32,000 nucleotides of DNA from Bacillus subtilis subsp. subtilis str. 168. GTDB taxonomy: Bacteria > Bacillota > Bacilli > Bacillales > Bacillaceae. The DNA lies in contig NC_000964.3 in the NCBI RefSeq assembly GCF_000009045.1, positions 3,810,001 through 3,842,000 of the forward strand. Reading direction: 5' to 3'. The stretch's first letter is position 1; each line of letters begins with the position of its first letter. The notes under the pieces were generated by a model. The model did no database searches, was not told the DNA's origin, and saw only the letters and a list, made by a program, of their open reading frames with translations. Of this stretch, positions 693 to 32,000 are shown piece by piece. Position numbers and translations under genes: made by a program.

Positions 693-2327
<1,635 letters not shown>

Positions 2328-2400: not shown

Positions 2401-2441
2401 TGAAAATAAGAAAGCTCCCTTTCAATTTCTTGAAAGGGAGC
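2401..2441 (-). terminator. pyrG leader attenuator (intrinsic terminator inside the 5' leader)
   Basis: On the minus strand, GCTCCCTTTCA (2441-2431) pairs with TGAAAGGGAGC (2424-2414) and is followed by TTTCTTATTTT. It lies between the predicted start site (2479) and the pyrG ATG (2300). Confidence 0.8.
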
Positions 2442-2473
2442 ATAACGTACTATGTTCTCTCTTCGTTTTTGAA

Positions 2474-2515
2474 GAGCCCAAAATACATACTACATAGTTC
2501 GACTATGAAAGTCAA
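2474..2515 (-). promoter_or_regulatory. pyrG promoter plus GGGCTC initially transcribed region (reiterative-transcription sensor)
   Basis: Minus strand: TTGACT (2515-2510), 17-nt spacer, TAGTAT (2492-2487), 7 nt, then GGGCTC (2479-2474). This matches the B. subtilis pyrG CTP-sensing arrangement as I remember it. Confidence 0.7.
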
Positions 2516-14780: not shown

Positions 14781-14805
14781 CTTGTTACACCTCATTTATC
14801 AAAAG

Positions 14806-16269: not shown

Positions 16270-19200
16270 GCCAATCGACCTCCTTCAGCTTGCGGATGAC
16301 GACGTTCAGGTCGCGCTGATTCCCCGTTGGACCGTAATAATTAAAGCCGTAGCTGAGCTGGGCGTAGCCACCGATCATCTGTGTCGGCTTGACGTGAATC
16401 CTTGTCGGGCTGTTATGGGTGCCTCCGCGGTTATTCGTCAGCTTTGTGCCGGGCACGTTGATGTGGCGGTCCTGGGCATGGTGCATAAACGCCATTCCTT
16501 TAGGAATCCGATGAGACAAAACGGCTCTCGCGACGACAACGCCGTTTCGGTTGAAGCATTCAATCCAATCGTTGTCTTTGATATCCGTGTCCTCTGCATC
16601 ATCTTTATTCATCCACACGGTCGGCCCGCCGCGGAACAGCGTCAGCATCGGCAGAGAATCAAAATACATGCTGTGGACAGACCATTTATTATGCGGCGTC
16701 AAATAATTGAGGACGATTTCTTTTCCCTCTTGATCAGGCCGTTTGCTCAGAAACGGGCGATGCTGGAGGATCGGTTTGAATGTCGCCATCGTTTCACCGA
16801 ATTCCATCATCAGTTCATGATCGACATAATAGGATTGTCTGCCTGTCAGCGTCCGCCACGGAATTAATTTTTCAACATTCGTTGTAAACGGCGAATACCT
16901 GCGCCCTCCTTTTTCAGAGCCGGTAAACGCTGGAGACGTGATCACCGTTTTCGGCTGGGCTGTAATTTGTTCGAACGTAAAGCATTCTTCCTCGCGTTCT
17001 TCCGCCAGGTCTTTCAGCTTCAGGTTCGTGATGTTTTCAAGTGATTCCCATGCTTTTACTGCGACCTTTCCATTCGAAGTGGATGATAGGGTTAAAATCG
17101 CTTCTGCAGCCTGCTTTGCTTCACTTATATTTGGACATCCCTTTGCCACGCTGTCCGAGGTGATTTCTCCCAGTCTCTGTTTGAGTGATTCATATTCATC
17201 GGCTATTGACCAGCTCATCCCTTTTGTTCCGCTCGGCTTTAAAGCAACGTTCGGACCAAGTGCAGTCATTTTATGAAAAATGTGTTTGTAATCCCGTTCA
17301 ACGACTTGGATGTTCGGCATCGTTTTTCCCGGAATGGCTTCACATTCGCCTTTGCTCCAGTCATTGATTTTGCCGAATGGCTGGGCCAATTCCTGCATGG
17401 TGTCGTGGAGCAGCGGTGTCGCAACCACTTCTTTCACCGGCTCCATATCGACTTCTTCTGCCAGATCGGAAACGGCTTTTGACAGCGCCTTGAAAATATC
17501 CCAGTCTGACTTCGATTCCCACGGAGCCGAGATCGCAGGAGCAAATGGATGAATGAACGGATGCATATCTGTGCTGCTGAGATCGTGTTTTTCATACCAT
17601 GTCGCCGCCGGCAGCACGATATCGGAATACAGCGCCGTACCCGCCATTCGAAAATCAAGATTGATTAATAAGTCGAGCTTTCCTTCCGGCGCCTGCTCCC
17701 GCCATTTGATTTCTTCTGGGCGGATGCTGTCGCTGTCGTCATTCATTAAACCGTTCGTTGTCCCCAGCAAATGCTTGAGAAAATATTCATGCCCTTTTCC
17801 TGAGCTTGAGATCAGATTTGCCCGCCATACAAAGAGATTCCTTGGGAAATTCACTTCATTGTCAGGATCTTCAATCGCGAATTTCAGTTTTTTCTCTTGG
17901 AGCTGTGAGGCCACGTACGCACCTACGTCTTCAGGTGTTGCTGCCCCTGCTTTTTCAGCTTCTTTATACAGATCGATGCCATTTTGATTGAAAGTCGGGT
18001 AAGACGGAAGCCACCCTAGCCGCGCCGCCAGCACATTGTAATCAGCGTGGTGCTTGTAGCGGGATGAAGCAGCAATCGGTGATGCCAAATCACTGATCGG
18101 CTGGTCCTCATAACGCCACTGATCTGTCGCAAAGTAGAAAAATGAGGTGCCATTTTGCAGCTTGGGCACGCCTTCCCAGTCCTTTGCAGTTGCAATCGTC
18201 TGCCACCCTTCAGCAGGTCGGAGCTTTTCCTGCCCCACGTAATGGGCCCAGCCTCCGCCGTTTACGCCTTGGGCGCCTACAAGTAAAACAAGATTTAACA
18301 CTGCTCGGTAGATCGTGTCGGAGTTGAACCAGTGGTTAATGCCGGCCCCTACGATAATCATGGACCGGCCGTCTGTATCGATCGCATTTTGGGCAAACTC
18401 TCTGGCAATCTTAACGACAGCTTCTTTTTTGATTCCTGTCATTTGTTCCTGCCAGGCAGGCGTAAACGGCTCAGGGTCATCATAGGAGACAGCCGATCGT
18501 TCGCCGATGCCCCGGTTCACGCCGTAGTTAGCCAGTATCAAGTCAAACACGGTCGTGATGTACGTTTCTTCACCGTTCAGGTTCATTTTTTTAATAGGAA
18601 GATCCCGCTCGAGCACTTTGTTTCCGTCATTTGAAAAATACGGGATGCGCACCGTGCCGATTTCGTCCTCTATTCCCAGCACAGAGAGACGGGGTTCAAT
18701 CGGTTCCCCGGTTTCTTCATCAATCATGTGCAGGTTCCATTTCTGCTGCCCGTCCCAGCGCGAGCCCATTGTCCCTTGGGGTATGGCAAATGAACTTGTC
18801 TGTTCATCCCAAACCGCAGGCTTCCACTGATCATGCTTTGTCTTCCGCCCGATGTCCTTCGCATGCAGAAACCGTCCCGCTGTGTATACGCCATTTTCTT
18901 TTGACAGAGTGACGAGAAATGGAAAATCAGTGTATTGCTTCGCGTACTCAATAAAACGTTCAGTTTCTTGGTTCACGTAAAATTCCTGCAGAATAACGTG
19001 ACCCATCGCCATCGCAAGCGCCCCGTCAGTCCCTTGGCGAATACTCAGCCAGTCATCCGCGAACTTTGAGGATTCCGCAAAATCTGGACTGATCGAAATG
19101 ACCTTAGCGCCTTTATAGCGGGCCTCCGCCAAAAAATGCGCGTCAGGCGTTCTCGTTAACGGAACGTTGGAGCCCCATGTGATAATATAGCCGGAATTGT

Positions 19201-19945
19201 ACCAATCACTGCTTTCCGGAACGTCCGTCTGGTCACCCCAAATTTGCGGGGATGCTGGAGGAAGATCCGCATACCAGTCATAAAAACTGAGCATAGGGCC
19301 TCCGATTAACGACATAAACCGGGAGCCTGATGCGTGGCTGATCATGGACATGGCCGGAATCGGAGAAAAACCGACGTTTCGGTCAGGCCCGTATTTCATC
19401 ACTGTATACAGCAGAGAGGCTGAAATCAGCTTCAGCACCTCCGGCCATTCAGCGCGCACAAAACCGCCTTTCCCTCTCGCCTGTTTATAGGACTTCGCTT
19501 TTTCAGGGTTTTCGACGATCGATTTCCAGGCTTCCAATGGATTTTGATGCGTCTGCAATGCCTCCCGCCACAAATTGATCAGCACACCGCGCACGTATGG
19601 ATATTTCACACGGAGCGGGCTGTAGATATACCATGAAAAACTGGCCCCCCGCGGGCAGCCTCTCGGTTCAAAATCAGGCATATCCGGGCCTGTTGATGGA
19701 TAATTCAAATTTTGCCCTTCCCACGTGACTATTCCGTTTTTCACATAAATATTCCAGCTGCAAGACCCTGTACAGTTGACGCCGTGGGTGGAGCGAACGA
19801 CTTTGTCGTACTGCCATCTGTTTCTGTATACATTCTCCCAATCGCGATCCTCGCGGGTAGTTTGGCTATGTTTATTTGAATGGTGTTCGATAGGAGAGAA
19901 ATAATTCAATCTCCTAAACAACGGACTCCTTTTCTTTTTCTTCAT
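16259..19945 (-). CDS. narG: Respiratory nitrate reductase alpha subunit (molybdopterin catalytic subunit)
   Basis: 1228-aa ORF. ATG follows AAGGAG. FS0 cluster motif HGVNCTGSCSW. Full-length Mo-bisPGD oxidoreductase architecture. Confidence 0.97.
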   Translation of the reverse strand: MKKKKRSPLFRRLNYFSPIEHHSNKHSQTTREDRDWENVYRNRWQYDKVVRSTHGVNCTGSCSWNIYVKNGIVTWEGQNLNYPSTGPDMPDFEPRGCPRGASFSWYIYSPLRVKYPYVRGVLINLWREALQTHQNPLEAWKSIVENPEKAKSYKQARGKGGFVRAEWPEVLKLISASLLYTVMKYGPDRNVGFSPIPAMSMISHASGSRFMSLIGGPMLSFYDWYADLPPASPQIWGDQTDVPESSDWYNSGYIITWGSNVPLTRTPDAHFLAEARYKGAKVISISPDFAESSKFADDWLSIRQGTDGALAMAMGHVILQEFYVNQETERFIEYAKQYTDFPFLVTLSKENGVYTAGRFLHAKDIGRKTKHDQWKPAVWDEQTSSFAIPQGTMGSRWDGQQKWNLHMIDEETGEPIEPRLSVLGIEDEIGTVRIPYFSNDGNKVLERDLPIKKMNLNGEETYITTVFDLILANYGVNRGIGERSAVSYDDPEPFTPAWQEQMTGIKKEAVVKIAREFAQNAIDTDGRSMIIVGAGINHWFNSDTIYRAVLNLVLLVGAQGVNGGGWAHYVGQEKLRPAEGWQTIATAKDWEGVPKLQNGTSFFYFATDQWRYEDQPISDLASPIAASSRYKHHADYNVLAARLGWLPSYPTFNQNGIDLYKEAEKAGAATPEDVGAYVASQLQEKKLKFAIEDPDNEVNFPRNLFVWRANLISSSGKGHEYFLKHLLGTTNGLMNDDSDSIRPEEIKWREQAPEGKLDLLINLDFRMAGTALYSDIVLPAATWYEKHDLSSTDMHPFIHPFAPAISAPWESKSDWDIFKALSKAVSDLAEEVDMEPVKEVVATPLLHDTMQELAQPFGKINDWSKGECEAIPGKTMPNIQVVERDYKHIFHKMTALGPNVALKPSGTKGMSWSIADEYESLKQRLGEITSDSVAKGCPNISEAKQAAEAILTLSSTSNGKVAVKAWESLENITNLKLKDLAEEREEECFTFEQITAQPKTVITSPAFTGSEKGGRRYSPFTTNVEKLIPWRTLTGRQSYYVDHELMMEFGETMATFKPILQHRPFLSKRPDQEGKEIVLNYLTPHNKWSVHSMYFDSLPMLTLFRGGPTVWMNKDDAEDTDIKDNDWIECFNRNGVVVARAVLSHRIPKGMAFMHHAQDRHINVPGTKLTNNRGGTHNSPTRIHVKPTQMIGGYAQLSYGFNYYGPTGNQRDLNVVIRKLKEVDWLED

Positions 19946-19983
19946 GAGAGTTCACTCCTTCCGAGTCAGGTGATGCTAAGTTC

Positions 19984-20026
19984 ACTATAAACAGAGACAG
20001 CGTGTTTCCTTGTGAACTATGTCACA
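19984..20026 (-). promoter_or_regulatory. narG promoter: Fnr box plus -10 hexamer
   Basis: TGTGAACTATGTCACA at 20011-20026 is a perfect TGTGA-N6-TCACA. TATAGT on the minus strand sits at 19989-19984. Box centre to hexamer centre is 32 bp, which is class II (-41.5) geometry. Confidence 0.8.
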
Positions 20027-20121
20027 CACTCTGCTTTTTTCACAAAATGTTCACACAAAGGAGAAGGAAGGCTGCGTTCAGGCAGGACGCTTGGGTCATT
20101 AGCTGCCTTTCATTCAAAGAT

Positions 20122-20148
20122 CAAAAAAAACCGGCTCTATTTAAGAAC
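20122..20148 (-). terminator. arfM terminator
   Basis: Minus strand: CCGGTTCT / AGAGCCGG stem with one mismatch, followed by a T9 run (20130-20122). The 5' arm overlaps the last arfM codons. Confidence 0.55.
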
Positions 20149-20617
20149 CGGGCTCAGCGTTTTCATCCTGTGATGTATGCAGATACCGCAAAAATAATTG
20201 ATAGGAACAAAAAACATTTTGCTGAAGCATAGCCAAAAAGTTCATTTGCAGCTGCGGATGATAAGACATCATTTTCTTAAATATGTAATATGGGATGTTG
20301 AGAATCAGAATGTCTGAAGTGGCATTGACTGAGATAAAGGGCGATAAATAAAGCCCGCCTTTTTCATCAATCGGAAACACATCGCCTTTTTCCCACAGCG
20401 CAACGGTTTTCGACCCTTCAGGGAGCCTTGTGTCCATAAAACGGACACTGCCTTTTAATACAATATAAACAGATTGAGAATGAAGAAAAGATGGAGACTG
20501 ATCACATGAACCGCGGATAAACGTGCCGTTTTTCAGCAAGGTTTCGACAATGGATAGAGGCACTTCATTAAACATAGGAAGTTGTTTCAGAAATAATAAA
20601 TAGTCACACTGATTCAT
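20141..20617 (-). CDS. arfM: Anaerobic respiration/fermentation modulator; cNMP-binding-like domain only, 158 aa
   Basis: ORF 20141..20710. I prefer the ATG at 20617 (MNQCDYLLFLKQLPMF...), 8 nt after AGGAGG. Crp/Fnr-like beta-roll sequence with no C-terminal helix-turn-helix. Confidence 0.88.
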   Translation of the reverse strand: MNQCDYLLFLKQLPMFNEVPLSIVETLLKNGTFIRGSCDQSPSFLHSQSVYIVLKGSVRFMDTRLPEGSKTVALWEKGDVFPIDEKGGLYLSPFISVNATSDILILNIPYYIFKKMMSYHPQLQMNFLAMLQQNVFCSYQLFLRYLHTSQDENAEPGS

Positions 20618-20674
20618 AGGAAAACCTCCTGTGCTAAGGATAGCTTTAGTGTAGCTCGACTGAGCCTGTACAGC

Positions 20675-20690
20675 AGTGATGTATTTCACA
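20675..20690. promoter_or_regulatory. Fnr box in the arfM / ywiC divergent intergenic region
   Basis: AGTGATGTATTTCACA matches TGTGA-N6-TCACA at 9 of 10 defined positions. TACACT (minus, 20653-20648) lies 32 bp from the box centre. TATCAG (plus, 20712-20717) lies 32 bp away on the other side. Confidence 0.7.
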
Positions 20691-20760
20691 GCCTGTATGA
20701 TGAATGTCACTTATCAGGAGGGTGAATGCATTTATAATGAAAGAAAAAAGGAGGATTTCG

Positions 20761-21480
20761 ATGAAGGCGCTGATTCCGAAGCAGCACGGGGCGTGGGCGA
20801 TGCTGCTGATCCCATTTTTACTCGGCATGGTCAAGGGAGGCCCCGTTATTTGGCATATTCCGCTCTTCCTTGGTTGGCTTTTCCTATACTTAGCGGTTTA
20901 TCCCGTTACGCTTGCCTTAAAAAAGAAACAAAGCAAACCATATCAAAAGTGGATGTGTTATTACGGTTTTCCCACCTGCTGCTTTTTGATGATCTCGGTC
21001 TTTCATAAGCCGCCTCTCATCTGGGTGGGCGTTTCTTTACTGCCGCTGTTTCTCATACATATGTATTTTGCCCGCAGAAAAAACGAACGAGCCTTATTGA
21101 ATGATGTTGCAGGTGTCTTGTTCTTTTGTTCGGGCGGGTTTGCGAGCTGCTGGCTGGGGATGGGAACCCTTGACGGCTGGGCTTGGTTTATTTTCTTGCA
21201 GTCTGCTTTATTTTTTATCGGGAGTTCCTTTTATGTGAAATCGGTGATCCGCGAGAGAAAAAACAGGGCATTTGCATACTGGTCATGGGGATATCACCTG
21301 CTGCTCCCCTTTTTATCCGCTCTTTTCGGAGCAGGATGGGCGTTTCTCGCTTTTATCCCGAGCAGCTTGCGGGCATGGTTTTTTCATGGAAGGGATTGGC
21401 CCGTAAAAACGATTGGCATTCTGGAAATCGTGAATGCCTGCTTCTTTCTTGCCGTCATGTGCCTGTTTATCACAAGGTAA
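20761..21480 (+). CDS. ywiC: Integral membrane protein, YwiC family, 239 aa
   Basis: ORF 20704..21480. I prefer the ATG at 20761 (MKALIPKQHGAW...), which follows AAAGGAGGA. Hydrophobic multi-TM sequence throughout. Confidence 0.85.
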   Translation: MKALIPKQHGAWAMLLIPFLLGMVKGGPVIWHIPLFLGWLFLYLAVYPVTLALKKKQSKPYQKWMCYYGFPTCCFLMISVFHKPPLIWVGVSLLPLFLIHMYFARRKNERALLNDVAGVLFFCSGGFASCWLGMGTLDGWAWFIFLQSALFFIGSSFYVKSVIRERKNRAFAYWSWGYHLLLPFLSALFGAGWAFLAFIPSSLRAWFFHGRDWPVKTIGILEIVNACFFLAVMCLFITR

Positions 21481-21512
21481 AAAAACAAGGACACCGCTGT
21501 CCTTGTTTTTTT
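21479..21512. terminator. Bidirectional terminator between convergent ywiC and fnr
   Basis: ACAAGGACA (21485-21493) pairs with TGTCCTTGT (21498-21506) around a 4-nt loop. An A-run precedes it and a T-run follows. Confidence 0.8.
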
Positions 21513-22228
21513 CAGTCAATATTGCAAATCTCCAGCGGGCAATTTTCACACTCAATCTCACATCGTAAATAGTCCCGCTTGTGCAAAATAATTTTTCCGG
21601 ATTCGTCTATCGAAATAACCCCTTTTTTGCGGAGATCTCCGAGCATACGATTGACGCTTTCCCGTGCAGCCGCGCAAAACTTTGCCAAATCCTGATTTGT
21701 CAGGACAATGTTAATCAGAATGCCGTCGCTTCGCTCCACTCCGTAGCTGTTTGATAAGCGGATAAGGGTAGAATAGAGCGCCCCCTTTTTGCCATGAAGA
21801 AGCAGATCCCTGATTTTGGACTGAATCTTCCGGAGGTGCGTGCTCATCCATTTCATGAACTCAAATGTCAAAGCGCCGTTTTGGATTAATTCTTTTTCCA
21901 GCTTATTTTTATTAATGACGAGCACCTCGCCATCCTCTAGTACTTTTGCACTGAGCATATACCTTGGTTCTTCAGTGAAAAGTGTTAATTCTCCGACGAT
22001 ATCATGCTTTTGGCAGATTCTAAGCGTCAGGTCTTTTCCGTCAGATGTCAGCTTGCCGATTTCAATGAGTCCTGATTGAATCAGATAAAGCTCTTCTGCA
22101 TCCATTCCTTCCCGAAACAAATACGTGTGTTTTTCCATTTTTCTTTTCGTGCTGATCGATTCCAGCAATTCATACAGATCGCTGGATATAAGATCACTAT
22201 CAGATGGTCGAACAGAGAGAAAATTCAT
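21512..22228 (-). CDS. fnr: Anaerobic transcriptional regulator Fnr (Crp/Fnr family)
   Basis: 238-aa ORF. ATG follows GAGGTGA. cNMP-like domain, helix-turn-helix LAKFCAAARESVNRMLGDLRKKG, and C-terminal Cys cluster CEIECENCPLEIC. Confidence 0.96.
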   Translation of the reverse strand: MNFLSVRPSDSDLISSDLYELLESISTKRKMEKHTYLFREGMDAEELYLIQSGLIEIGKLTSDGKDLTLRICQKHDIVGELTLFTEEPRYMLSAKVLEDGEVLVINKNKLEKELIQNGALTFEFMKWMSTHLRKIQSKIRDLLLHGKKGALYSTLIRLSNSYGVERSDGILINIVLTNQDLAKFCAAARESVNRMLGDLRKKGVISIDESGKIILHKRDYLRCEIECENCPLEICNID

Positions 22229-22326
22229 GAGCTCACCTCGAAGAAAGTCACGTTGTGTGTTTATTGTAACGTGAATTGATTTGTACCCATCGAGAAAAAA
22301 CTAACAATCTTGTGAATGCCCCAGTG

Positions 22327-23514
22327 TTAGTTGATGCTCTGGCTGTTTCTCTCCGTGTGTGTTTTCATTCTTTCCTGCCAATACATCCATATGACAAGGA
22401 CAAAACTGGCTAACGCCACCTCTGAAAGCGCCATAAACCCGATCGCGTACTGGCCTGTTGCCTGAAATACACTCGCCAATATGAGCGGAGGAAAAAAGCC
22501 GCCTAAACCGCCCATGGCAGACACAATCCCATTGGCAATCCCCGCTTGCTTCGAAAAATAGAAAGGCACCAGTTTAAAAACAGTTCCGTTTCCTATGCCT
22601 GAGCAGACGGCCACGGTTAATGATCCAAACGTATAAAGGCCGATTGTCGGCGAGAACGATAGGATAATGCCTGATAATGTAAGCCCGGCAAAAACAAACA
22701 TCAAGATGCGGAGCGGGCTCATTTTATCAGCCAGGAATCCGCCCGCAGGCCTGAGCAGCGTAGAAACCGCAATAAAGCCAGCCGTCCGCAAGCCGGCATC
22801 TGCAGGATTCAGCCCAAAATGCTCCACCAGAAAGTTCGGCAGATAGATAGTGAAGGCGACAAAGGCACCGAACGTAATAAAATAAAACAGGCTCAGAAAC
22901 CATAGCACATGATTTCGGTAAACAGCTTTGATTTGAGTCTTAACAGAAACTTTGACCTTCTTCTCATGCCTGTCGCCAAACAATACGTGCAGTAAGGCAA
23001 AGACAGCCAGCAAAATCAGATACATTTGCACGGTTGATTTCCACCCGACGGCTTGAGCGATAACCGGCGCTGCAAATGTCGTAACGGCTGTCCCGATATT
23101 TCCTGCACCGTAAATCCCATTGACGACACCGTGCTTTTCTTTCGGATAATATTTCGGGAGGGAGGTCACCCCAATGGAAAACACCGCTCCCCCGATCCCT
23201 AAGAAAAAGCCGCCTGCGATTAAATCAAACAGAGAATCCGCGATACTGATCCAAAATACAGGAAATAAAAGCAGGATGAAGCTGACCATAAACATGAGCC
23301 GCGCGCCAAACCTGTTCGTTAAATACCCTAAAGGAATGCGGAGAAGCGACCCGAGGATCACAGGAATCGCGGTCACTAAAGAAATCTCACCCTTGCTTAA
23401 ATGAATATCTAATGTGATTTGGGAAATGAGTGATGAAATCAGCACCCAAACCATAAACCCTGCCACCAAGCTTAATGACTGTAACGATAATTGAATGTGT
23501 TGACGGTTGATCAT
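22327..23514 (-). CDS. narK: Nitrate/nitrite transporter (MFS, NNP family), 395 aa
   Basis: ORF 22327..23571. I prefer the ATG at 23514 (MINRQHIQ...), which follows AAAGGGG. 12-TM MFS-like sequence immediately upstream of fnr. Confidence 0.92.
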   Translation of the reverse strand: MINRQHIQLSLQSLSLVAGFMVWVLISSLISQITLDIHLSKGEISLVTAIPVILGSLLRIPLGYLTNRFGARLMFMVSFILLLFPVFWISIADSLFDLIAGGFFLGIGGAVFSIGVTSLPKYYPKEKHGVVNGIYGAGNIGTAVTTFAAPVIAQAVGWKSTVQMYLILLAVFALLHVLFGDRHEKKVKVSVKTQIKAVYRNHVLWFLSLFYFITFGAFVAFTIYLPNFLVEHFGLNPADAGLRTAGFIAVSTLLRPAGGFLADKMSPLRILMFVFAGLTLSGIILSFSPTIGLYTFGSLTVAVCSGIGNGTVFKLVPFYFSKQAGIANGIVSAMGGLGGFFPPLILASVFQATGQYAIGFMALSEVALASFVLVIWMYWQERMKTHTERNSQSIN

Positions 23515-23551
23515 TTGGCTTGCCCCTTTCAATGATTCAATAATCAGTCTT

Positions 23552-23594
23552 ATCATACAAAAACTAGCCAAACAGGATTGTGAATTACATCACA
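23552..23594 (-). promoter_or_regulatory. narK-fnr promoter: Fnr box plus -10 hexamer
   Basis: TGTGAATTACATCACA at 23579-23594 is a perfect consensus box. TATGAT on the minus strand sits at 23557-23552. Centre-to-centre distance is 32 bp. Confidence 0.8.
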
Positions 23595-25320: not shown

Positions 25321-25745
25321 GCGTGAGTTCCTCCCTCATACGTGATCGTCATATTATGTAAATGCTCCTGCTCGTCTCCGACATGCATGTCATATGCGAT
25401 GCTGATACGGCCTTTTTCTTCATCGAGATCAGATTGAATCGATTTTGTGCTTGTTTTCAGCTCAAGCTCACCAAATGACATTTTATATTTAGCAATTGTG
25501 GAAGCTCCCGTTACGAAACGCTGATTCATTTTGACAGCGCCTGACCTCATGACCAGGACTTCGCCTTCGCTTACTTTCACAATCGTTTTGACTTTGCCTA
25601 AGTCGTGTTCTTCATAATAAGATAGATACACTTTATTTTGTTTTACATAGTAAAATCCGGTGGTGCGGAATTCGATGACTTCTTGGTTTCCGTCATCCTC
25701 GATCACAGACTTCACATGGAGTGTTATCGGTGTCTCTTGCTTCAT
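25317..25745 (-). CDS. ywiB: Conserved beta-barrel protein (DUF1934 family), 142 aa
   Basis: ORF with ATG after AAAAGGA. Translationally coupled to argS. Recognised as YwiB by sequence and position. Confidence 0.88.
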
Positions 25746-25784
25746 TCTGACACGTCCTTTTCATCATTCCACTTTGACTTGAAT

Positions 25785-25813
25785 AGTATAATCATTCGGT
25801 TTGTAAACTTCAA
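25785..25813 (-). promoter_or_regulatory. Candidate sigma-A promoter for ywiB-argS
   Basis: Minus strand: TTGAAG (25813-25808), 17-nt spacer, TATACT (25790-25785). Lies about 40 nt upstream of the ywiB ATG. Confidence 0.4.
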
Positions 25814-25977
25814 CTGCTTCTATCTTACCATCATTGCTCATCAGATTTGAAGATAAACCTCATAAAAAGCATTTCCTTATATAGAAGAGAAAATCATATC
25901 ACTAATTACCTTTAGGAAATGTTACATTTTTCCGAAATCTATCATTTCCTTTTCACATTTTTTTCAAAATATATGTA

Positions 25978-26006
25978 TTGAATTAGTAATTTGATAGTTT
26001 TAAGAT
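25978..26006 (+). promoter_or_regulatory. sboA-alb operon promoter
   Basis: TTGAAT (25978-25983), 17-nt spacer, TAAGAT (26001-26006). Lies about 50 nt upstream of the sboA ATG, inside a very AT-rich 312-bp intergenic region. Confidence 0.6.
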
Positions 26007-26057
26007 AAAAGTACAACATAGATCTGCTAGAAAAACAAAAAAAGGGAGGATTCAATT

Positions 26058-26189
26058 ATGAAAAAAGCTGTCATTGTAGAAAACAAAGGTTGTGCAACAT
26101 GCTCGATCGGAGCCGCTTGTCTAGTGGACGGTCCTATCCCTGATTTTGAAATTGCCGGTGCAACAGGTCTATTCGGTCTATGGGGGTAA
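26058..26189 (+). CDS. sboA: Subtilosin A precursor peptide (sactipeptide bacteriocin), 43 aa
   Basis: Not in the ORF track (under 60 aa). AAAGGGAGGA at 26041-26050, ATG at 26058, product MKKAVIVENKGCATCSIGAACLVDGPIPDFEIAGATGLFGLWG, TAA at 26187-26189. Matches SboA from memory. Confidence 0.95.
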   Translation: MKKAVIVENKGCATCSIGAACLVDGPIPDFEIAGATGLFGLWG

Positions 26190-26298
26190 GGATCTCCCAA
26201 AAGGGCATAGTCATTCTACTATGCCCTTTTTAAGTAAATTACAATTTTTAACTAAAATCTACCTCTTGGATATACATACACAACCGTTTTTCATTTGA
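26146..26298 (+). CDS. sboX: Overlapping out-of-frame ORF sboX, 50 aa; annotated in B. subtilis but translation is uncertain
   Basis: A TTG at 26146 in the +1 frame relative to sboA reads MKLPVQQVYSVYGGKDLPKGHSHSTMPFLSKLQFLTKIYLLDIHTQPFFI. TGA at 26296-26298. No obvious SD sequence. It runs through the sboA terminator hairpin. Confidence 0.4.
   Translation: MKLPVQQVYSVYGGKDLPKGHSHSTMPFLSKLQFLTKIYLLDIHTQPFFI
26199..26233 (+). terminator. Intra-operon hairpin / partial terminator between sboA and albA
   Basis: AAAGGGCATAGT (26200-26211) pairs perfectly with ACTATGCCCTTT (26218-26229) around a 6-nt loop, followed by TTTTTAAG. Confidence 0.75.
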
Positions 26299-26322
26299 AT
26301 CATATGTATAGGGGATGGTATT

Positions 26323-27669
26323 TTGTTTATAGAGCAGATGTTTCCATTTATTAATGAAAGTGTAAGAGTTCACCAGCTTCCTGAGGGCGGCGTGTTAGAA
26401 ATCGACTACTTGCGCGATAATGTCTCCATTTCTGACTTTGAGTATTTGGATCTCAACAAAACGGCTTACGAGCTCTGCATGCGCATGGATGGCCAAAAAA
26501 CAGCTGAGCAGATTTTAGCTGAGCAATGTGCAGTGTATGATGAATCACCGGAAGACCATAAAGATTGGTATTACGACATGCTCAACATGCTCCAGAACAA
26601 GCAGGTTATTCAGCTTGGAAACCGGGCCAGCCGCCATACAATCACCACGAGCGGAAGCAATGAATTTCCGATGCCCCTGCACGCCACCTTTGAACTGACG
26701 CACCGCTGTAATTTGAAATGCGCCCACTGTTATTTGGAAAGCTCACCTGAAGCGCTCGGCACCGTGTCGATTGAGCAATTCAAAAAAACGGCTGATATGC
26801 TGTTTGATAACGGTGTATTGACATGCGAAATCACAGGTGGAGAAATTTTTGTCCATCCAAACGCCAATGAGATTCTTGACTATGTGTGTAAAAAGTTCAA
26901 AAAAGTCGCTGTCTTAACAAACGGAACACTCATGCGAAAAGAGAGCCTGGAGCTTTTGAAGACTTACAAGCAAAAAATCATCGTCGGCATTTCTCTAGAT
27001 AGTGTCAATTCCGAGGTCCATGACTCCTTTAGAGGGAGAAAAGGCTCTTTTGCCCAAACTTGTAAAACGATAAAATTGTTGAGTGACCACGGTATATTTG
27101 TCAGAGTCGCTATGTCTGTCTTCGAAAAAAACATGTGGGAAATCCACGATATGGCCCAAAAGGTTCGGGATCTCGGGGCGAAGGCGTTTTCTTACAATTG
27201 GGTTGACGATTTCGGAAGAGGCAGGGATATTGTCCATCCAACGAAAGACGCCGAGCAGCACCGCAAGTTTATGGAATACGAGCAACATGTGATTGATGAG
27301 TTTAAAGATCTGATTCCGATTATTCCCTATGAGAGAAAACGCGCGGCAAATTGCGGCGCTGGCTGGAAGTCCATTGTGATCAGTCCGTTCGGCGAAGTAC
27401 GTCCTTGCGCCCTCTTTCCAAAGGAATTTTCATTGGGAAATATTTTTCATGATTCCTATGAAAGCATCTTTAACTCCCCTCTCGTCCATAAACTGTGGCA
27501 AGCGCAAGCGCCGCGGTTCAGCGAACATTGCATGAAAGACAAATGCCCGTTCAGCGGCTATTGCGGAGGCTGTTACTTAAAAGGGCTGAACTCTAACAAA
27601 TATCACCGGAAAAACATTTGCTCTTGGGCGAAAAATGAACAATTAGAAGACGTGGTCCAGCTTATTTAG
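26323..27669 (+). CDS. albA: Radical SAM / SPASM sactisynthase forming the subtilosin thioether bonds
   Basis: 448-aa ORF with TTG start. CxxxCxxC motif CNLKCAHC at 26707-26730 (Cys129/133/136). C-terminal Cys-rich SPASM region CGAGWKS...C...CMKDKCPFSGYCGGC. Confidence 0.96.
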   Translation: MFIEQMFPFINESVRVHQLPEGGVLEIDYLRDNVSISDFEYLDLNKTAYELCMRMDGQKTAEQILAEQCAVYDESPEDHKDWYYDMLNMLQNKQVIQLGNRASRHTITTSGSNEFPMPLHATFELTHRCNLKCAHCYLESSPEALGTVSIEQFKKTADMLFDNGVLTCEITGGEIFVHPNANEILDYVCKKFKKVAVLTNGTLMRKESLELLKTYKQKIIVGISLDSVNSEVHDSFRGRKGSFAQTCKTIKLLSDHGIFVRVAMSVFEKNMWEIHDMAQKVRDLGAKAFSYNWVDDFGRGRDIVHPTKDAEQHRKFMEYEQHVIDEFKDLIPIIPYERKRAANCGAGWKSIVISPFGEVRPCALFPKEFSLGNIFHDSYESIFNSPLVHKLWQAQAPRFSEHCMKDKCPFSGYCGGCYLKGLNSNKYHRKNICSWAKNEQLEDVVQLI

Positions 27670-27681
27670 GAGGGAAACGAT

Positions 27682-27843
27682 TTGTCACCAGCACAAAGAA
27701 GAATTTTACTGTATATCCTTTCATTTATCTTTGTCATCGGCGCAGTCGTCTATTTTGTCAAAAGCGATTATCTGTTTACGCTGATTTTCATTGCCATTGC
27801 CATTCTGTTCGGGATGCGCGCGCGGAAGGCTGACTCGCGATGA
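27682..27843 (+). CDS. albB: Small two-TM membrane protein (subtilosin immunity), 53 aa
   Basis: Not in the ORF track. TTG at 27682 follows AGGAGGGAA. Product MSPAQRRILLYILSFIFVIGAVVYFVKSDYLFTLIFIAIAILFGMRARKADSR. Its TGA overlaps the albC ATG (ATGA at 27840-27843). Confidence 0.85.
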   Translation: MSPAQRRILLYILSFIFVIGAVVYFVKSDYLFTLIFIAIAILFGMRARKADSR

Positions 27844-28559
27844 GCATTTTGGATATACACGATGTATCCGTTTGGTATGAACGGGACAACGTCATCTTAG
27901 AACAAGTGGATTTACATTTAGAAAAAGGCGCCGTTTACGGGTTACTTGGGGTAAACGGCGCCGGAAAAACGACACTGATTAATACGCTGACAGGCGTGAA
28001 CCGCAATTTCAGCGGGCGTTTTACACTGTGCGGAATTGAAGCGGAGGCCGGCATGCCGCAGAAAACATCAGATCAGCTGAAGACTCACCGTTACTTCGCC
28101 GCCGATTATCCGCTGCTATTTACAGAAATTACGGCGAAGGACTATGTGTCTTTCGTCCATTCGCTTTATCAAAAGGATTTTTCAGAGCAGCAGTTTGCCA
28201 GTTTGGCCGAGGCCTTTCATTTTTCGAAATACATCAATAGGAGAATTTCGGAGCTGTCCTTGGGGAACAGGCAAAAGGTTGTATTGATGACAGGCTTATT
28301 GCTGCGCGCTCCCCTGTTTATTTTGGATGAGCCGCTCGTCGGTTTGGATGTGGAATCGATAGAGGTCTTTTATCAGAAAATGCGTGAGTACTGTGAAGCA
28401 GGCGGAACCATTTTGTTTTCTTCTCATCTGCTCGATGTCGTGCAAAGATTTTGTGATTATGCGGCTATTCTTCACAACAAACAGATCCAAAAGGTCATTC
28501 CGATTGGAGAGGAGACCGATCTGCGGCGGGAATTTTTCGAGGTGATCGGCCATGAATAA
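27840..28559 (+). CDS. albC: ABC transporter ATP-binding protein
   Basis: 239-aa ORF. Walker A GVNGAGKTT, signature LSLGNRQK, Walker B LFILDEP. Confidence 0.93.
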   Translation: MSILDIHDVSVWYERDNVILEQVDLHLEKGAVYGLLGVNGAGKTTLINTLTGVNRNFSGRFTLCGIEAEAGMPQKTSDQLKTHRYFAADYPLLFTEITAKDYVSFVHSLYQKDFSEQQFASLAEAFHFSKYINRRISELSLGNRQKVVLMTGLLLRAPLFILDEPLVGLDVESIEVFYQKMREYCEAGGTILFSSHLLDVVQRFCDYAAILHNKQIQKVIPIGEETDLRREFFEVIGHE

Positions 28560-29862
28560 CATAATCCCTATCATGTCTTTGCTGTTCAAACAGCTTTACA
28601 GCCGGCAAGGGAAAAAGGACGCCATCCGCATTGCCGCAGGCCTTGTCATTCTGGCCGTGTTTGAAATCGGGCTGATCCGCCAGGCCGGCATTGATGAATC
28701 GGTGTTGCGCAAAACGTATATCATACTCGCGCTTCTTTTGATGAACACATATATGGTGTTTCTTTCCGTGACATCACAATGGAAGGAATCTTATATGAAG
28801 CTGAGCTGCCTGCTGCCGATTTCTTCACGGAGCTTTTGGCTCGCCCAGAGTGTCGTTTTGTTTGTCGATACCTGTTTGAGAAGAACTTTATTCTTTTTTA
28901 TTTTACCGCTGTTCTTATTTGGAAACGGAACGCTGTCAGGGGCGCAAACATTGTTTTGGCTCGGCAGGTTTTCGTTTTTTACCGTTTACTCCATTATTTT
29001 CGGAGTTGTGCTAAGCAACCACTTCGTCAAAAAGAAGAACTTGATGTTTCTGCTGCATGCGGCGATATTCGCCTGTGTATGTATCAGCGCCGCTTTGATG
29101 CCGGCCGCCACGATTCCGCTTTGCGCGGTTCATATCCTGTGGGCGGTGGTCATTGACTTTCCTGTCTTTCTGCAGGCGCCTCCGCAGCAGGGCAAGATGC
29201 ATTCATTTATGCGGCGATCTGAATTTTCGTTTTACAAAAGAGAATGGAACCGATTTATCTCTTCTAAAGCGATGCTGTTAAATTACGCGGTAATGGCGGT
29301 ATTCAGCGGCTTCTTTTCGTTCCAGATGATGAACACCGGCATCTTCAATCAGCAAGTGATTTATATCGTGATTTCCGCGCTTTTGCTCATCTGCTCGCCG
29401 ATCGCCCTTTTGTATTCGATTGAAAAAAATGACCGGATGCTGCTCATCACGCTTCCGATCAAGCGAAAAACGATGTTTTGGGCGAAATATCGCTTTTATT
29501 CAGGCCTATTGGCAGGCGGATTTCTCCTTGTCGTGATGATTGTGGGTTTCATCAGCGGCCGTTCGATTTCAGTTCTCACTTTTTTGCAGTGCATTGAGTT
29601 GCTGCTGGCGGGAGCGTATATCAGGTTAACTGCGGATGAAAAAAGGCCCTCCTTCAGCTGGCAGACGGAGCAGCAGCTATGGAGCGGTTTCTCAAAATAT
29701 CGGTCTTATCTGTTTTGTCTTCCCCTATTCTTAGCCATATTAGCCGGCACCGCTGTATCCTTGGCGGTCATTCCGATAGCCGGTCTGGTCATAGTCTATT
29801 ACCTGCAAAAACAGGATGGTGGTTTCTTTGATACAAGCAAAAGAGAACGGCTTGGAAGTTAA
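28552..29862 (+). CDS. albD: Polytopic membrane protein (export/immunity partner of AlbC)
   Basis: 436-aa, highly hydrophobic ORF. Its ATG overlaps the albC 3' end by 8 nt. Confidence 0.9.
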   Translation: MNNIIPIMSLLFKQLYSRQGKKDAIRIAAGLVILAVFEIGLIRQAGIDESVLRKTYIILALLLMNTYMVFLSVTSQWKESYMKLSCLLPISSRSFWLAQSVVLFVDTCLRRTLFFFILPLFLFGNGTLSGAQTLFWLGRFSFFTVYSIIFGVVLSNHFVKKKNLMFLLHAAIFACVCISAALMPAATIPLCAVHILWAVVIDFPVFLQAPPQQGKMHSFMRRSEFSFYKREWNRFISSKAMLLNYAVMAVFSGFFSFQMMNTGIFNQQVIYIVISALLLICSPIALLYSIEKNDRMLLITLPIKRKTMFWAKYRFYSGLLAGGFLLVVMIVGFISGRSISVLTFLQCIELLLAGAYIRLTADEKRPSFSWQTEQQLWSGFSKYRSYLFCLPLFLAILAGTAVSLAVIPIAGLVIVYYLQKQDGGFFDTSKRERLGS

Positions 29863-31012
29863 CCTGCTGAAGACTCATCAATTTTCAACTATTTCAATCG
29901 CCGCGAGCTTTCTGAAACCGATCGAAAGCGCGGCGGAACCTGAGGAAGAAACGATTTATTTTTACGGCGCCGCCGCATACCTGAAGGAGCAAATCATTGA
30001 CGCTTTTGGTTATGCTGCCGGCAGCCGTTTCATGTACTCAGCGAATCTCTTTTTTGATCAGCAGCTGAAAACCTGCGGGACCCGTTTGATTCACCCATTA
30101 TATAACGGGAATCTTCATGTTGACGCCCTGATGAAAACTTTTGCAGACTTGTCTTTCCCTTCTTCTCTTTCATTCGAAGCATTTGAAAAGGCCAGGAATG
30201 AGCTGCTGCTGAAAATCGAAAAGAAATTCACTGATCCCTTCTCCTACTCGGCGGCTCGCTTGGCTGAGGAGGTCTTCGGAAACCCGATGTACGGCACAGG
30301 CATGTTTGGCCGGAGAGACAGGATAAAGGCGATTCATCCTAAACGGTTTCTCGACGCAACGGACTTTATCGTTGATTTAGTGTCCCAGCAAAAACAGCTG
30401 AACATATTGGGACAAGTACAAGCATGTGATGTTCGGGGACATGCCCCGCAAACGTCCGCTGTAACGTCCGGAAGAATACCCGTAAACCGGCATGTTTTTG
30501 AAACAGAGACACGCAGCGCTGCAGGTCCTTCCGTCTTGACACTCGGATTTGACTGCGGAGAGATGAAAGATGCCAGCGATTATATCAAAATACAGCTAAT
30601 AGACGGATTACTGGGAAAGTACGGCCATTCCGCTTTATTCAAGCACTTCAGAGAGAAGGATCTGGCAGTCTATCACGTTATCACCCGTTACGATGTCATG
30701 AACAATTTGCTGCTTGTTTCAATATGTACAGATCAGCTTCATGAGAAAGACATTCCCCCGCGCGTTTTGGAAGCTGTCTCAGCTTTTCATACAGATGAGC
30801 GGGAACTAGAACAGGCAAAGCAGTTTTTACGCAATGAATTGCTGCTGCAATTCGATTCTCCCGAAGGTCTATTGGCCTATATGGGGGTCCTGCGCCGCTT
30901 CTCCTGCACGAAAGAAGCCTTGCTGGATGGCATCTCAGCGGTTACATGCCGTGATGTATTGCAATTCATAGCGACCATCAATTATATCGGAGCTCATGTA
31001 GTAAGGGGATGA
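29852..31012 (+). CDS. albE: M16-family peptidase-like protein lacking the zinc-binding motif
   Basis: ORF 29816..31012. The start is uncertain: ATG 29816, TTG 29828 or TTG 29852. I use 29852 because I remember AlbE as 386 aa. AYLKE sits where an M16 HxxEH motif would be. Confidence 0.85.
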   Translation: MEVNLLKTHQFSTISIAASFLKPIESAAEPEEETIYFYGAAAYLKEQIIDAFGYAAGSRFMYSANLFFDQQLKTCGTRLIHPLYNGNLHVDALMKTFADLSFPSSLSFEAFEKARNELLLKIEKKFTDPFSYSAARLAEEVFGNPMYGTGMFGRRDRIKAIHPKRFLDATDFIVDLVSQQKQLNILGQVQACDVRGHAPQTSAVTSGRIPVNRHVFETETRSAAGPSVLTLGFDCGEMKDASDYIKIQLIDGLLGKYGHSALFKHFREKDLAVYHVITRYDVMNNLLLVSICTDQLHEKDIPPRVLEAVSAFHTDERELEQAKQFLRNELLLQFDSPEGLLAYMGVLRRFSCTKEALLDGISAVTCRDVLQFIATINYIGAHVVRG

Positions 31013-31016
31013 AGAG

Positions 31017-32000
31017 ATGGAAAAGAAAGCCTTTTTTCAACAGCTGGATGAACGAACCGATATCAGATACACAGACAGCGGACTAAAAATATTCAGATTG
31101 AAATTCCCCCGCGCCCACCTGCGGCTGTGCAATGTAAAAATCGATTTTGGAAGCCGGGATGTATGTATACGGGCAGAATCCGGTGATACACTGCTTCCGT
31201 ATGGCACAGCACATTTTTTAGAGCATCTTCTCTTCTGGCATAACGGCCGCAATCTGTACAGTGATTTTTTTGCGCATGGCGCGCTTTTAAACGCATTCAC
31301 TACCTACACCGATACCAATTTCATGTTTACCTCATTACCGGATCGGCTCAGACAAACGATTCCCATCCTGCTTGATGCTTTATGGAACCACTCATTTGAC
31401 AAGAAGATTGTCGCTCAGGAAAAAGCTGTGATTACAAGCGAAATTCAAACAGCACACCTTAACCATCAGCTCTCATATCATTATCAGCTGATCAGCATGC
31501 TTTCTCCCTCCTCACCAGCTGCCGTTTTCCCCGCAGGCAGAATCGAAGATATTGAGGCGCTGGACATCAGTGATTTACAAAAAGCCTATAAGGCTGCCTA
31601 CCAAGCCCATCGGATGACGCTGTTTTTGATTGGGGGCTCAGAAAATACAGAAACGCTTTTGCCTCCTCACCTCCAGCTGGAAAAGCGTCCGGATTATCAT
31701 GCTGAAAGAAAAATCATCCCGGCATGCCCTCCAGTCCTCTCACAAAAAATGATGCTGGGTGATGAGGAGCGGATGGAAGATACCTGGACCGGATTACAGA
31801 TCGGCGCACTTCCCGGGCAAAACGATCTGTTGTCGATAAAGCTTTATTGGGATATCGCGGCTCGTATTCTATTTCAATTAGATTCACCGTTTTTTCAAGA
31901 GATTCAGCAAACGTACCGCCTGGAAATCGATCGCTTGTCAGCCGAGACTTATATATATGAGGATGGCGGTTTCTTGATCCTTCACAGTCAAGGGACCCAT
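31017..32000 (+). CDS. albF: M16-family zinc metallopeptidase (5' partial, runs off the window)
   Basis: Not in the ORF track (no stop in the window). ATG at 31017 follows AAGGGGA. The frame is open for all 328 codons to 32000. Inverted zinc motif HFLEH at 31212-31226. Confidence 0.9.
   Translation, partial: MEKKAFFQQLDERTDIRYTDSGLKIFRLKFPRAHLRLCNVKIDFGSRDVCIRAESGDTLLPYGTAHFLEHLLFWHNGRNLYSDFFAHGALLNAFTTYTDTNFMFTSLPDRLRQTIPILLDALWNHSFDKKIVAQEKAVITSEIQTAHLNHQLSYHYQLISMLSPSSPAAVFPAGRIEDIEALDISDLQKAYKAAYQAHRMTLFLIGGSENTETLLPPHLQLEKRPDYHAERKIIPACPPVLSQKMMLGDEERMEDTWTGLQIGALPGQNDLLSIKLYWDIAARILFQLDSPFFQEIQQTYRLEIDRLSAETYIYEDGGFLILHSQGTH

What the first reader, a model, noticed from the sequence alone, without database searches (positions are those of the whole stretch)
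26058..26189. Unlisted 43-codon gene encodes the subtilosin A sactipeptide precursor (sboA)
The ATG at 26058 sits 7 nt after AAAGGGAGGA. It reads MKKAVIVENKGCATCSIGAACLVDGPIPDFEIAGATGLFGLWG, with stop TAA at 26187-26189. The gene is below the 60-aa cutoff, so the ORF track misses it. Three Cys (precursor C12, C15, C21) lie N-terminal to F30, T36 and F39. That is the donor/acceptor layout of a sactipeptide, and the next gene is a radical-SAM/SPASM enzyme. From memory this is SboA of B. subtilis: an 8-residue leader and a 35-residue head-to-tail cyclised product with three Cys-S to alpha-carbon links. It is the key accessory gene here, but it is not novel.
Basis: partly seen in the sequence, partly recalled or inferred. 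Interest (0 to 1): 0.7.

Follow-up and report, generated by a model that had tools for sequence, protein, structure and literature searches.

The report
Known subtilosin A precursor gene sboA

Summary
The observation and the interpretation both hold. Window 26058-26189 (+) is an ATG-started 43-codon ORF ending in TAA, 7 nt after AAAGGGAGGA. Its product is the exact catalogued sequence SBOA_BACSU, found on at least 1000 public contigs. Residues 9-43 are 100% identical to the solved structure of mature subtilosin A (PDB 1PXQ, E=1e-20). It scores 90.8 bits against Pfam PF11420 (cutoff 25).

The next gene is an equivalog-level AlbA sactisynthase (1065 bits, cutoff 850) with CxxxCxxC at C129/C133/C136. 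It is followed by albB, albC, albD, albE and a truncated albF.

Across ten B. subtilis-group species, sboA shows 42 synonymous against 3 non-synonymous codon differences. The gene is therefore real and under very strong purifying selection.

A 13-bp hairpin with a T-run follows the stop codon and is conserved in all ten species, with a paired arm change (T-A to C-G) in B. atrophaeus. It is most likely a leaky terminator that lets the precursor transcript outnumber the enzyme transcripts.

The overlapping annotated ORF sboX is not conserved as a coding frame.

The locus matches the B. subtilis 168-type sbo-alb operon beside the nar/fnr anaerobic cluster. It is already known, and interest is low.

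The parts
25978..26006 (+). Putative sigma-A promoter of sboA. It has -35 TTGAAT (25978-25983), a 17-nt spacer and -10 TAAGAT (26001-26006), placing a start site near 26011-26014.
   Evidence: Inference from the sequence. It matches 8 of 12 consensus positions, below the scan threshold, so one search does not list it. In the ten-species alignment the -10 reads TAAGAT, TATCAT or TAATAT, and T1, A2, A5 and T6 never change. The site has not been mapped here. Direct ResD, AbrB and Rok control of the sboA promoter is taken from the literature.
26041..26050 (+). Ribosome-binding site AAAGGGAGGA, 7 nt before the ATG.
   Evidence: It is conserved in nine of the ten B. subtilis-group loci and altered only in B. 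atrophaeus.
26058..26189 (+). sboA coding sequence: 43 codons plus TAA. The leader MKKAVIVE is 26058-26081, the 35-residue core is 26082-26186 and the stop is 26187-26189.
   Evidence: The core is 100% identical to PDB 1PXQ. PF11420 scores 90.8 bits. The sequence is exactly SBOA_BACSU. There are 42 synonymous versus 3 non-synonymous codon differences.
26199..26231 (+). Hairpin after the stop codon, read as an intrinsic, probably leaky, terminator between sboA and albA. The arms are 26199-26211 and 26218-26230, the loop is 26212-26217 and the T-run is 26227-26231.
   Evidence: Folding gives -20.7 kcal/mol with z=-5.05, and 0 of 200 shuffles fold as well. A hairpin is present in all ten B. subtilis-group loci, with at least one paired arm change (T-A to C-G) in B. 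atrophaeus. A terminator is drawn at this position in a published locus figure. The simple terminator scan missed it, probably because the A/T extension of the stem takes up the T-run.
26146..26298 (+). Annotated overlapping ORF sboX. It has a TTG start, encodes 50 aa, lies in a different frame from sboA, and reads through the hairpin.
   Evidence: The sequence is exactly SBOX_BACSU. The frame is truncated to 21-36 aa in seven species and read through to 60 aa with a changed tail in one, so only B. stercoris keeps the 50-aa form. The literature already notes a 22-aa truncation in W23-like strains. No convincing Shine-Dalgarno sequence precedes it.
26323..27669 (+). albA: radical-SAM/SPASM sactisynthase with an N-terminal PqqD-like RRE. 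It forms the three Cys-S to C-alpha thioethers.
   Evidence: NF012164 AlbA equivalog scores 1065 bits against a cutoff of 850. Radical_SAM, SPASM and PqqD domains are present. CxxxCxxC lies at C129/C133/C136, which is the published numbering. The sequence exactly matches B. subtilis AlbA.
27682..27843 (+). albB: a 53-aa small membrane protein. Its role in immunity comes from the literature and my recollection.
   Evidence: ORF. It is 85-100% identical across the B. subtilis-group loci at the same position. There is no significant family hit.
27840..28559 (+). albC: ABC-transporter ATPase for export and immunity.
   Evidence: PF00005 at 7.4e-22. The best NCBIfam matches, all below their cutoffs, are the lantibiotic-protection (TIGR03740) and daunorubicin-resistance (drrA) ABC ATPases. 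An export role is stated.
28552..29862 (+). albD: a 436-aa polytopic membrane protein, the presumed permease partner of AlbC.
   Evidence: ORF. No family hit. Syntenic and 80-94% identical across species.
29816..31012 (+). albE: M16-type peptidase-like subunit. The ORF is measured from the first ATG, and the true start may lie a few codons downstream.
   Evidence: Peptidase_M16_C. The best PDB match is 7Y8U chain E, 'AlbE homolog', at E=1e-19.
31017..32000 (+). albF: M16 zinc-protease subunit, with its 5' part only because the window ends inside it. With AlbE it removes the leader and is implicated in head-to-tail cyclisation.
   Evidence: The best PDB match is 7Y8U chain F, 'AlbF homolog', at E=8.8e-21. 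The AlbE/AlbF role is stated.

Best explanation
Window 26058-26189 is sboA, the structural gene of the sactipeptide bacteriocin subtilosin A, in its native sbo-alb operon on a B. subtilis 168-type chromosome.

Proposed mechanism, step by step:
1. A promoter roughly 45-80 bp upstream drives transcription. It is activated by ResD under oxygen limitation and repressed by AbrB and Rok.
2. The strong Shine-Dalgarno sequence gives efficient translation of the 43-residue precursor.
3. A conserved hairpin with a T-run straight after the stop codon ends most transcripts. The rest read through into albABCDEF(G), so the precursor message exceeds the enzyme messages.
4. AlbA binds the 8-residue leader through its RRE domain. 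By radical-SAM chemistry it abstracts the C-alpha hydrogen of F22, T28 and F31 (core numbering). It links them to C13, C7 and C4, giving a nested hairpin.
5. The AlbE/AlbF M16 protease pair removes MKKAVIVE and is implicated in joining N1 to G35 head to tail.
6. AlbC and AlbD, with AlbB, export the product and protect the producer.

What is shown here: the gene, its identity, its selective constraint, its neighbours and the conserved hairpin. What comes from published work on this same locus: the chemistry, the regulation and the AlbEF role. What is inferred: the promoter hexamers and the leaky-terminator role of the hairpin.
For: Identity:
- The ORF and Shine-Dalgarno sequence are exactly as described.
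- The core is 100% identical to the mature subtilosin A structure 1PXQ at E=1.1e-20.
- PF11420 Subtilosin_A scores 90.8 bits against a cutoff of 25.
- The sequence exactly matches SBOA_BACSU, on at least 1000 contigs.

Neighbouring genes:
- AlbA is an equivalog at 1065 bits against 850, with C129/C133/C136 matching the published cluster ligands.
- AlbE and AlbF match the crystallised AlbEF homologues in 7Y8U.
- AlbC is an ABC ATPase.

Conservation:
- The 12 kb from ywiC/fnr to albF is collinear with all ten B. subtilis-group species. B. stercoris is the nearest at 95.6% nucleotide identity.
- There are 42 synonymous versus 3 non-synonymous codon differences.
- SboA is 100% identical in nine of ten species, while AlbA is 90-99% and AlbF 67-92%.
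- The hairpin has z=-5.05 and is conserved, with a paired arm change (T-A to C-G) in B. atrophaeus.

Literature:
- Chemistry, leader dependence and the RRE: PMC8172795 and PMC9828075.
- ResD, AbrB and Rok regulation and oxygen limitation: PMC11756287.
- AlbE/F processing and AlbC export: PMC12300986 and PMC12350095.
Against: - Nothing in the sequence contradicts this reading.
- No expression or peptide data exist for this particular strain.
- The window ends inside albF, so the 3' part of albF and albG cannot be seen.
- The proposed promoter matches only 8 of 12 consensus positions and was not picked up by the consensus scan.
- The terminator scan did not call the hairpin.
- The primary papers on the transcription start, sboX and regulator footprints were not available to read.
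- The enzyme that performs the head-to-tail ligation is still only implicated in the literature, not demonstrated.
Confidence: 0.98

Rival explanations
1. The gene is intact but the locus is non-functional in this strain. The unseen part of the operon (the 3' part of albF, and albG) could carry a lesion, or the locus could be silenced, so that no mature subtilosin is made.
For: - The window stops inside albF.
- Natural loss alleles exist. Some B. atrophaeus entries fuse sboA out of frame to albF through a deletion of about 5 kb.
- Production has reportedly not been detected in some undomesticated strains.
Against: - All visible genes are full-length and uninterrupted.
- The SboA, SboX and AlbA sequences exactly match the widespread B. 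subtilis alleles.
- The cluster is reported as conserved in all B. subtilis isolates.
Confidence: 0.03
2. The functional product of this stretch is a different overlapping ORF. Candidates are sboX (26146-26298, +) and the 57-aa antisense ORF (26027-26200, -).
For: - sboX is an annotated protein, SBOX_BACSU.
- Both ORFs exist mechanically.
- From my recollection of Zheng et al. 2000, which I could not read here, an sboX-lacZ translational fusion is expressed.
Against: - Substitutions fall 7/1/38 on codon positions 1/2/3 of the sboA frame, so selection acts on that frame.
- Only B. stercoris keeps the 50-aa sboX form. Seven species truncate it to 21-36 aa and one reads through to 60 aa with a changed tail, and the frame runs through the terminator hairpin.
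- The start is TTG with no good Shine-Dalgarno sequence.
- Neither Pfam nor NCBIfam matches it.
- The literature already doubts that it is produced in W23-like strains.
- By my recollection, an in-frame sboX deletion has no phenotype.
Confidence: 0.01
3. It encodes a variant peptide with different activity, such as the haemolytic subtilosin A1 (T6I), or a differently cross-linked relative.
For: - Variants exist in databases. B. tequilensis has V5I, A20V and I32V.
- The B. vallismortis, Paenibacillus and Anaerocolumna relatives are 76-81% identical.
- The T6I variant is described in the literature.
Against: - The core here is identical at all 35 positions to 1PXQ.
- Core residue 6 (precursor T14) is Thr, not Ile.
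Confidence: 0

Closest known systems
SboA / subtilosin A of Bacillus subtilis 168 (UniProt SBOA_BACSU; PDB 1PXQ; Pfam PF11420)
   Same: All 43 residues are identical. The locus has the same leader/core split, the same three Cys donors and Phe/Thr/Phe acceptors, the same flanking genes (ywiB and argS upstream, albA to albF downstream) and the same overlapping sboX ORF.
   Different: Nothing detectable. The strain is unnamed, and albG and the end of albF lie outside the window.
SboA variants in other B. subtilis-group species (B. tequilensis, B. vallismortis)
   Same: They share the operon architecture and the cross-link residues. Cys12/15/21 and F30 are invariant in the alignment.
   Different: B. 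tequilensis has V5I, A20V and I32V. The B. vallismortis entry P0005 has lost its stop codon and is only 81% identical. The window carries the consensus sequence.
Subtilosin-family clusters outside Bacillus (Paenibacillus MAG L011, Anaerocolumna L012; staphylococcal hyicin 4244-type clusters in the literature)
   Same: The precursors are 76-77% identical, and all three Cys and F30 are kept. L011 has the complete sboA-albABCDEF order.
   Different: Their AlbA is only 56% and 36% identical. Anaerocolumna shows no detectable AlbB, AlbD, AlbE or AlbF in the 12-kb locus, and its C-terminus (GLFGIAS) differs at the ligation site.
Other type I sactipeptides (thurincin H, thuricin CD Trn-alpha/beta, SKF, huazacin)
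   Same: They have the same layout of N-terminal Cys donors and C-terminal acceptors in a nested hairpin, made by an rSAM/SPASM enzyme with an RRE. The SkfB model is a distant second hit for AlbA.
   Different: Their precursor families are unrelated in sequence and their leaders are longer. Most are not head-to-tail cyclised. AlbA barely accepts them as substrates.

Membership tests
Subtilosin A precursor (SboA; Pfam PF11420) | Sequence match to the family model above the curated cutoff | tested here: met
   PF11420 scores 90.8 bits against a cutoff of 25, covering profile positions 1-35 of 35.
Subtilosin A precursor (SboA; Pfam PF11420) | Core identical or near-identical to the experimentally solved mature peptide | tested here: met
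   Residues 9-43 are 100% identical to PDB 1pxq_A over all 35 positions, E=1.1e-20.
Subtilosin A precursor (SboA; Pfam PF11420) | Short N-terminal leader (8 residues) before core residue Asn1 | tested here: met
   The mature chain begins at precursor residue 9, so the leader is MKKAVIVE.
Subtilosin A precursor (SboA; Pfam PF11420) | Donor Cys at core positions 4, 7 and 13, and acceptors Phe22, Thr28 and Phe31 | tested here: met
   The sequence has C12/C15/C21 and F30/T36/F39 in precursor numbering.
Subtilosin A precursor (SboA; Pfam PF11420) | Exact catalogue identity with B. subtilis SboA | tested here: met
   The exact-sequence look-up returns the cluster with representative SBOA_BACSU, named 'subtilosin A [Bacillus subtilis]'.
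sbo-alb biosynthetic operon | Adjacent rSAM/SPASM sactisynthase AlbA with an RRE and a CxxxCxxC motif | tested here: met
   NF012164 equivalog at 1065 bits against 850. Radical_SAM, SPASM and PqqD domains. C129/C133/C136.
sbo-alb biosynthetic operon | AlbE/AlbF M16 protease pair downstream | tested here: met
   PDB 7Y8U chains E and F ('AlbE homolog', 'AlbF homolog') at E=1e-19 and 8.8e-21. Only the first 327 codons of albF are in the window.
sbo-alb biosynthetic operon | AlbB, AlbC and AlbD export and immunity genes | tested here: met
   AlbC is an ABC ATPase. The AlbB and AlbD ORFs are present and syntenic at 80-100% identity in ten species. Their functions are taken from the literature, not tested.
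sbo-alb biosynthetic operon | albG and a complete albF | not testable with these tools
   The window ends at 32000, inside albF.
Sactipeptide (RiPP class) | Cys sulfur to alpha-carbon thioether bonds actually formed, the leader removed, and the backbone cyclised head to tail | not testable with these tools
   This needs MS or NMR on the peptide from this strain. The expected monoisotopic [M+H]+ is 3400.58. It has been shown experimentally for the identical sequence in B. subtilis 168.
Sactipeptide (RiPP class) | Expression under oxygen limitation or stationary phase through ResD, AbrB and Rok | not testable with these tools
   From the literature only. The promoter hexamers are inferred from the sequence.

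The most novel reading that the evidence does not exclude
SboA is identical at all 43 residues in nine species, even where the locus DNA has diverged by up to about 20% and where the housekeeping ArgS next door has changed. This could mean more than antibiotic potency is at stake, for example a tight co-evolutionary lock with AlbA, AlbEF and the immunity proteins, or a second physiological role for the peptide. In parallel, the annotated gene sboX may not be a gene at all but a by-product of the sequence around the conserved terminator hairpin.
Probability: 0.1. Interest if true: 0.3.

Novelty: already known. Interest (0 to 1): 0.07.

Why it matters
It matters only as an annotation point. A biologically important 43-codon gene falls below a 60-aa ORF cutoff and would be missed without targeted small-ORF or RiPP-precursor detection.

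The peptide was discovered in 1985 and its structure solved in 2003-2004. Its enzymology (AlbA in 2012, AlbEF in 2022) and its regulation are well described.

The comparative results here add modest supporting detail but no new biology. They are the extreme purifying selection on sboA, the conserved hairpin with a paired arm change, and the non-conservation of sboX.

Tried and rejected
- The consensus promoter and terminator scan of 25700-26400 found no + strand promoter and no terminator. The hairpin is nevertheless real, so the scan result was set aside as a limit of the method.
- NCBIfam has no model matching the 43-aa peptide, but Pfam does.
- The Rfam scan of the whole window found nothing in the sboA-albA region.
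- The genome-contig scan did not return B. subtilis itself. I take this to be masking of the window's source rather than absence, because exact-sequence look-ups place SboA, SboX and AlbA in B. subtilis.
- Five attempts to read the primary papers failed because they are not held. These were Nakano 2000, Zheng 1999/2000, Albano 2005 and Strauch 2007.
- A literature search for the sboA-albA terminator returned only irrelevant papers.
- I first mis-set the albF start by one base and corrected it to 31017.
- I considered and rejected three alternatives: the antisense 57-aa ORF and sboX as the selected frame (the codon-position pattern rules them out), and the T6I subtilosin A1 variant (Thr is present).

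Full report
**Observation**

AAAGGGAGGA occupies 26041-26050, followed by a 7-nt spacer and an ATG at 26058. Forty-three codons give MKKAVIVENKGCATCSIGAACLVDGPIPDFEIAGATGLFGLWG, followed by TAA at 26187-26189. The ORF shows up in the mechanical ORF list only when the cutoff is lowered to 25 aa, which explains why a 60-aa track missed it. Cys residues are at precursor positions 12, 15 and 21. Phe30, Thr36 and Phe39 follow, as stated.

**Identity**

- A sequence search of the Protein Data Bank returns a single hit, 1PXQ chain A. This is the 35-residue NMR structure of mature subtilosin A, labelled 'Subtilisin A' in the file. It aligns to residues 9-43 at 100% identity with E=1.1e-20.
- Pfam PF11420 (Subtilosin_A) scores 90.8 bits against a cutoff of 25.
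- The full 43-aa sequence is present verbatim in the 15-billion-protein collection. It is the representative of a cluster named 'subtilosin A [Bacillus subtilis]' / SBOA_BACSU, seen on at least 1000 contigs.
- The 1PXQ alignment fixes the leader as MKKAVIVE (8 residues) and the core as 35 residues.

**Surroundings**

- The next gene (26323-27669) matches the NCBIfam equivalog 'subtilosin maturase AlbA' at 1065 bits against a cutoff of 850. It has PqqD-like RRE, Radical_SAM and SPASM domains.
- Its only CxxxCxxC motif lies at C129/C133/C136. These are the residues reported as ligands of the SAM-cleaving cluster. Its sequence exactly matches B. subtilis AlbA entries.
- Downstream come a 53-aa ORF (albB), an ABC ATPase (albC) and a 436-aa membrane protein (albD).
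- Then come two M16-type peptidase homologues. Their best solved relatives are chains E and F of 7Y8U, the 'AlbE homolog' and 'AlbF homolog'.
- albF starts at 31017 and runs off the window.
- Upstream, on the minus strand, are a DUF1934 protein (ywiB position), arginyl-tRNA synthetase, an MFS transporter (narK position), a Crp/Fnr regulator and the respiratory nitrate reductase.

**Taxonomy**

One scan of the one-genome-per-species collection returned twelve loci. The window's last 12 kb is collinear with all ten B. subtilis-group loci. Nucleotide identity ranges from 80.6% (B. atrophaeus) to 95.6% (B. stercoris). B. subtilis itself was not returned, presumably because it is masked as the source. 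The exact protein matches put the window in B. subtilis sensu stricto, 168-type alleles.

**Is the gene real and under selection?**

- Across the ten species, sboA has 42 synonymous and 3 non-synonymous codon differences. All three non-synonymous changes are in B. tequilensis.
- Differences fall 7/1/38 on codon positions 1/2/3 (statistics, with the caveat that the species share ancestry).
- SboA is 100% identical in nine of ten species. By comparison, AlbA is 90-99%, AlbE 70-95%, AlbF 67-92% and ArgS 96-99%.
- This settles that the sboA frame is the selected one, not the antisense ORF or the overlapping one.

**Mechanism**

The chemistry comes from published work on this same sequence. AlbA depends on the leader and on its RRE. 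It abstracts the alpha-hydrogen of the acceptor residue and joins the Cys sulfur to it. This gives three thioethers from C4, C7 and C13 to F31, T28 and F22 in a nested, type I hairpin (the specific pairing is from my own knowledge and agrees with the nested layout). The leader is then removed and the 35-mer is closed head to tail, steps attributed to AlbE and AlbF. AlbC exports the product. ResD activates the operon under oxygen limitation, and AbrB and Rok repress it.

From the sequence I infer two things.

- **Promoter.** A sigma-A promoter with -35 TTGAAT (25978-25983), a 17-nt spacer and -10 TAAGAT (26001-26006). The T1, A2, A5 and T6 positions of the -10 are invariant across species.
- **Terminator.** A 13-bp hairpin (26199-26230) with a T-run lies directly after the stop codon. 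It folds at -20.7 kcal/mol, z=-5.05. It is kept in all ten species, with at least one paired arm change (T-A to C-G) in B. atrophaeus. I read it as a leaky intrinsic terminator that lets sboA mRNA outnumber alb mRNA. A published locus diagram marks a terminator there.

**sboX**

The overlapping 50-aa TTG-started ORF (26146-26298) is exactly SBOX_BACSU. Only B. stercoris keeps the 50-aa form. Seven species truncate the frame to 21-36 aa, and one reads through to 60 aa with a changed tail. The frame runs through the hairpin and has no family match. The literature already notes a 22-aa truncation in W23-like strains, which equals the 28-aa form I find in B. spizizenii. It is unlikely to be a conserved functional gene.

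**Comparison and verdict**

Every testable defining feature of SboA and of the sbo-alb operon is met. Only the actual chemistry and expression, and the presence of albG, cannot be tested here. This is the known gene in its known context. Novelty is 'already known' and interest is low. The only adjustments are that the cluster is core rather than accessory in B. subtilis, and that 0.7 overstates the interest.

Noticed in passing
window 26146-26298 (+): The annotated overlapping ORF sboX (exactly SBOX_BACSU) is not conserved as a reading frame. Only B. stercoris keeps the 50-aa form; seven species truncate it to 21-36 aa and one reads through to 60 aa with a changed tail. It reads through the terminator hairpin, so it is probably not a conserved functional gene.
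   Followed up: yes
window 26199-26231 (+): A conserved 13-bp hairpin with a T-run lies between sboA and albA (z=-5.05). B. atrophaeus keeps it through a paired arm change (T-A to C-G). The simple terminator scan missed it. It is probably a leaky terminator that sets the ratio of precursor to enzyme transcripts.
   Followed up: partly
window 26058-26189 versus L001-L010: SboA is 100% identical in nine of ten species. That is more conserved than the adjacent housekeeping ArgS (96-99%) and far more than its own maturation enzymes (AlbF 67-92%).
   Followed up: yes
L001 11245-11376 (B. atrophaeus albF region; equivalent to window 31297-31425): The database 'SboA' variants P0011 and P0012 have C-terminal tails that map out of frame into albF, and P0010 and P0014 carry the same tails. 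P0014 is from B. atrophaeus. These genomes therefore carry deletions of about 5 kb that fuse the first 25-28 codons of sboA to albF and remove albA to albE. They are natural loss alleles, not peptide variants.
   Followed up: partly
L011 6001-11623 (Paenibacillus MAG); L012 3664-7618 (Anaerocolumna sp. AGMB13025): Subtilosin-family precursors 76-77% identical to SboA occur outside Bacillus. The Paenibacillus MAG has the full sboA-albABCDEF order, with AlbA 56% identical. Anaerocolumna (Clostridia) has only an AlbA-like enzyme (36%) and an ABC ATPase nearby, with no detectable AlbE or AlbF in the 12-kb locus. Its C-terminus is also different (GLFGIAS), which raises the question of how, or whether, it is cyclised.
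   Followed up: partly
window 2403-2479 (-): Rfam PyrG leader (89.6 bits against a gathering score of 65) lies directly upstream of the CTP synthase gene at 693-2300 (-).
   Followed up: no
window 20050-20118 (-): Rfam Bacillaceae-1 sRNA scores just above its gathering score (37.1 against 35). It lies just upstream of the start of the narG gene (16259-19945, -), between it and the 189-aa ORF at 20141-20710.
   Followed up: no
window 13558-23571: The sbo-alb operon lies about 2.5 kb from the anaerobic respiration cluster, which includes nitrate reductase, a Crp/Fnr regulator and a NarK-like MFS transporter. This fits their shared induction by ResDE under oxygen limitation. The arrangement is known for B. 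subtilis.
   Followed up: partly
window 29816-29862 (+): The albE ORF measured from its first ATG overlaps the end of albD by 47 nt. The true start is probably a few codons downstream. I did not resolve this.
   Followed up: no
Genome-contig collection: The species-representative scan returned ten B. subtilis-group species but not B. subtilis itself, although the exact proteins are catalogued from B. subtilis. The source region is presumably masked in that collection.
   Followed up: no
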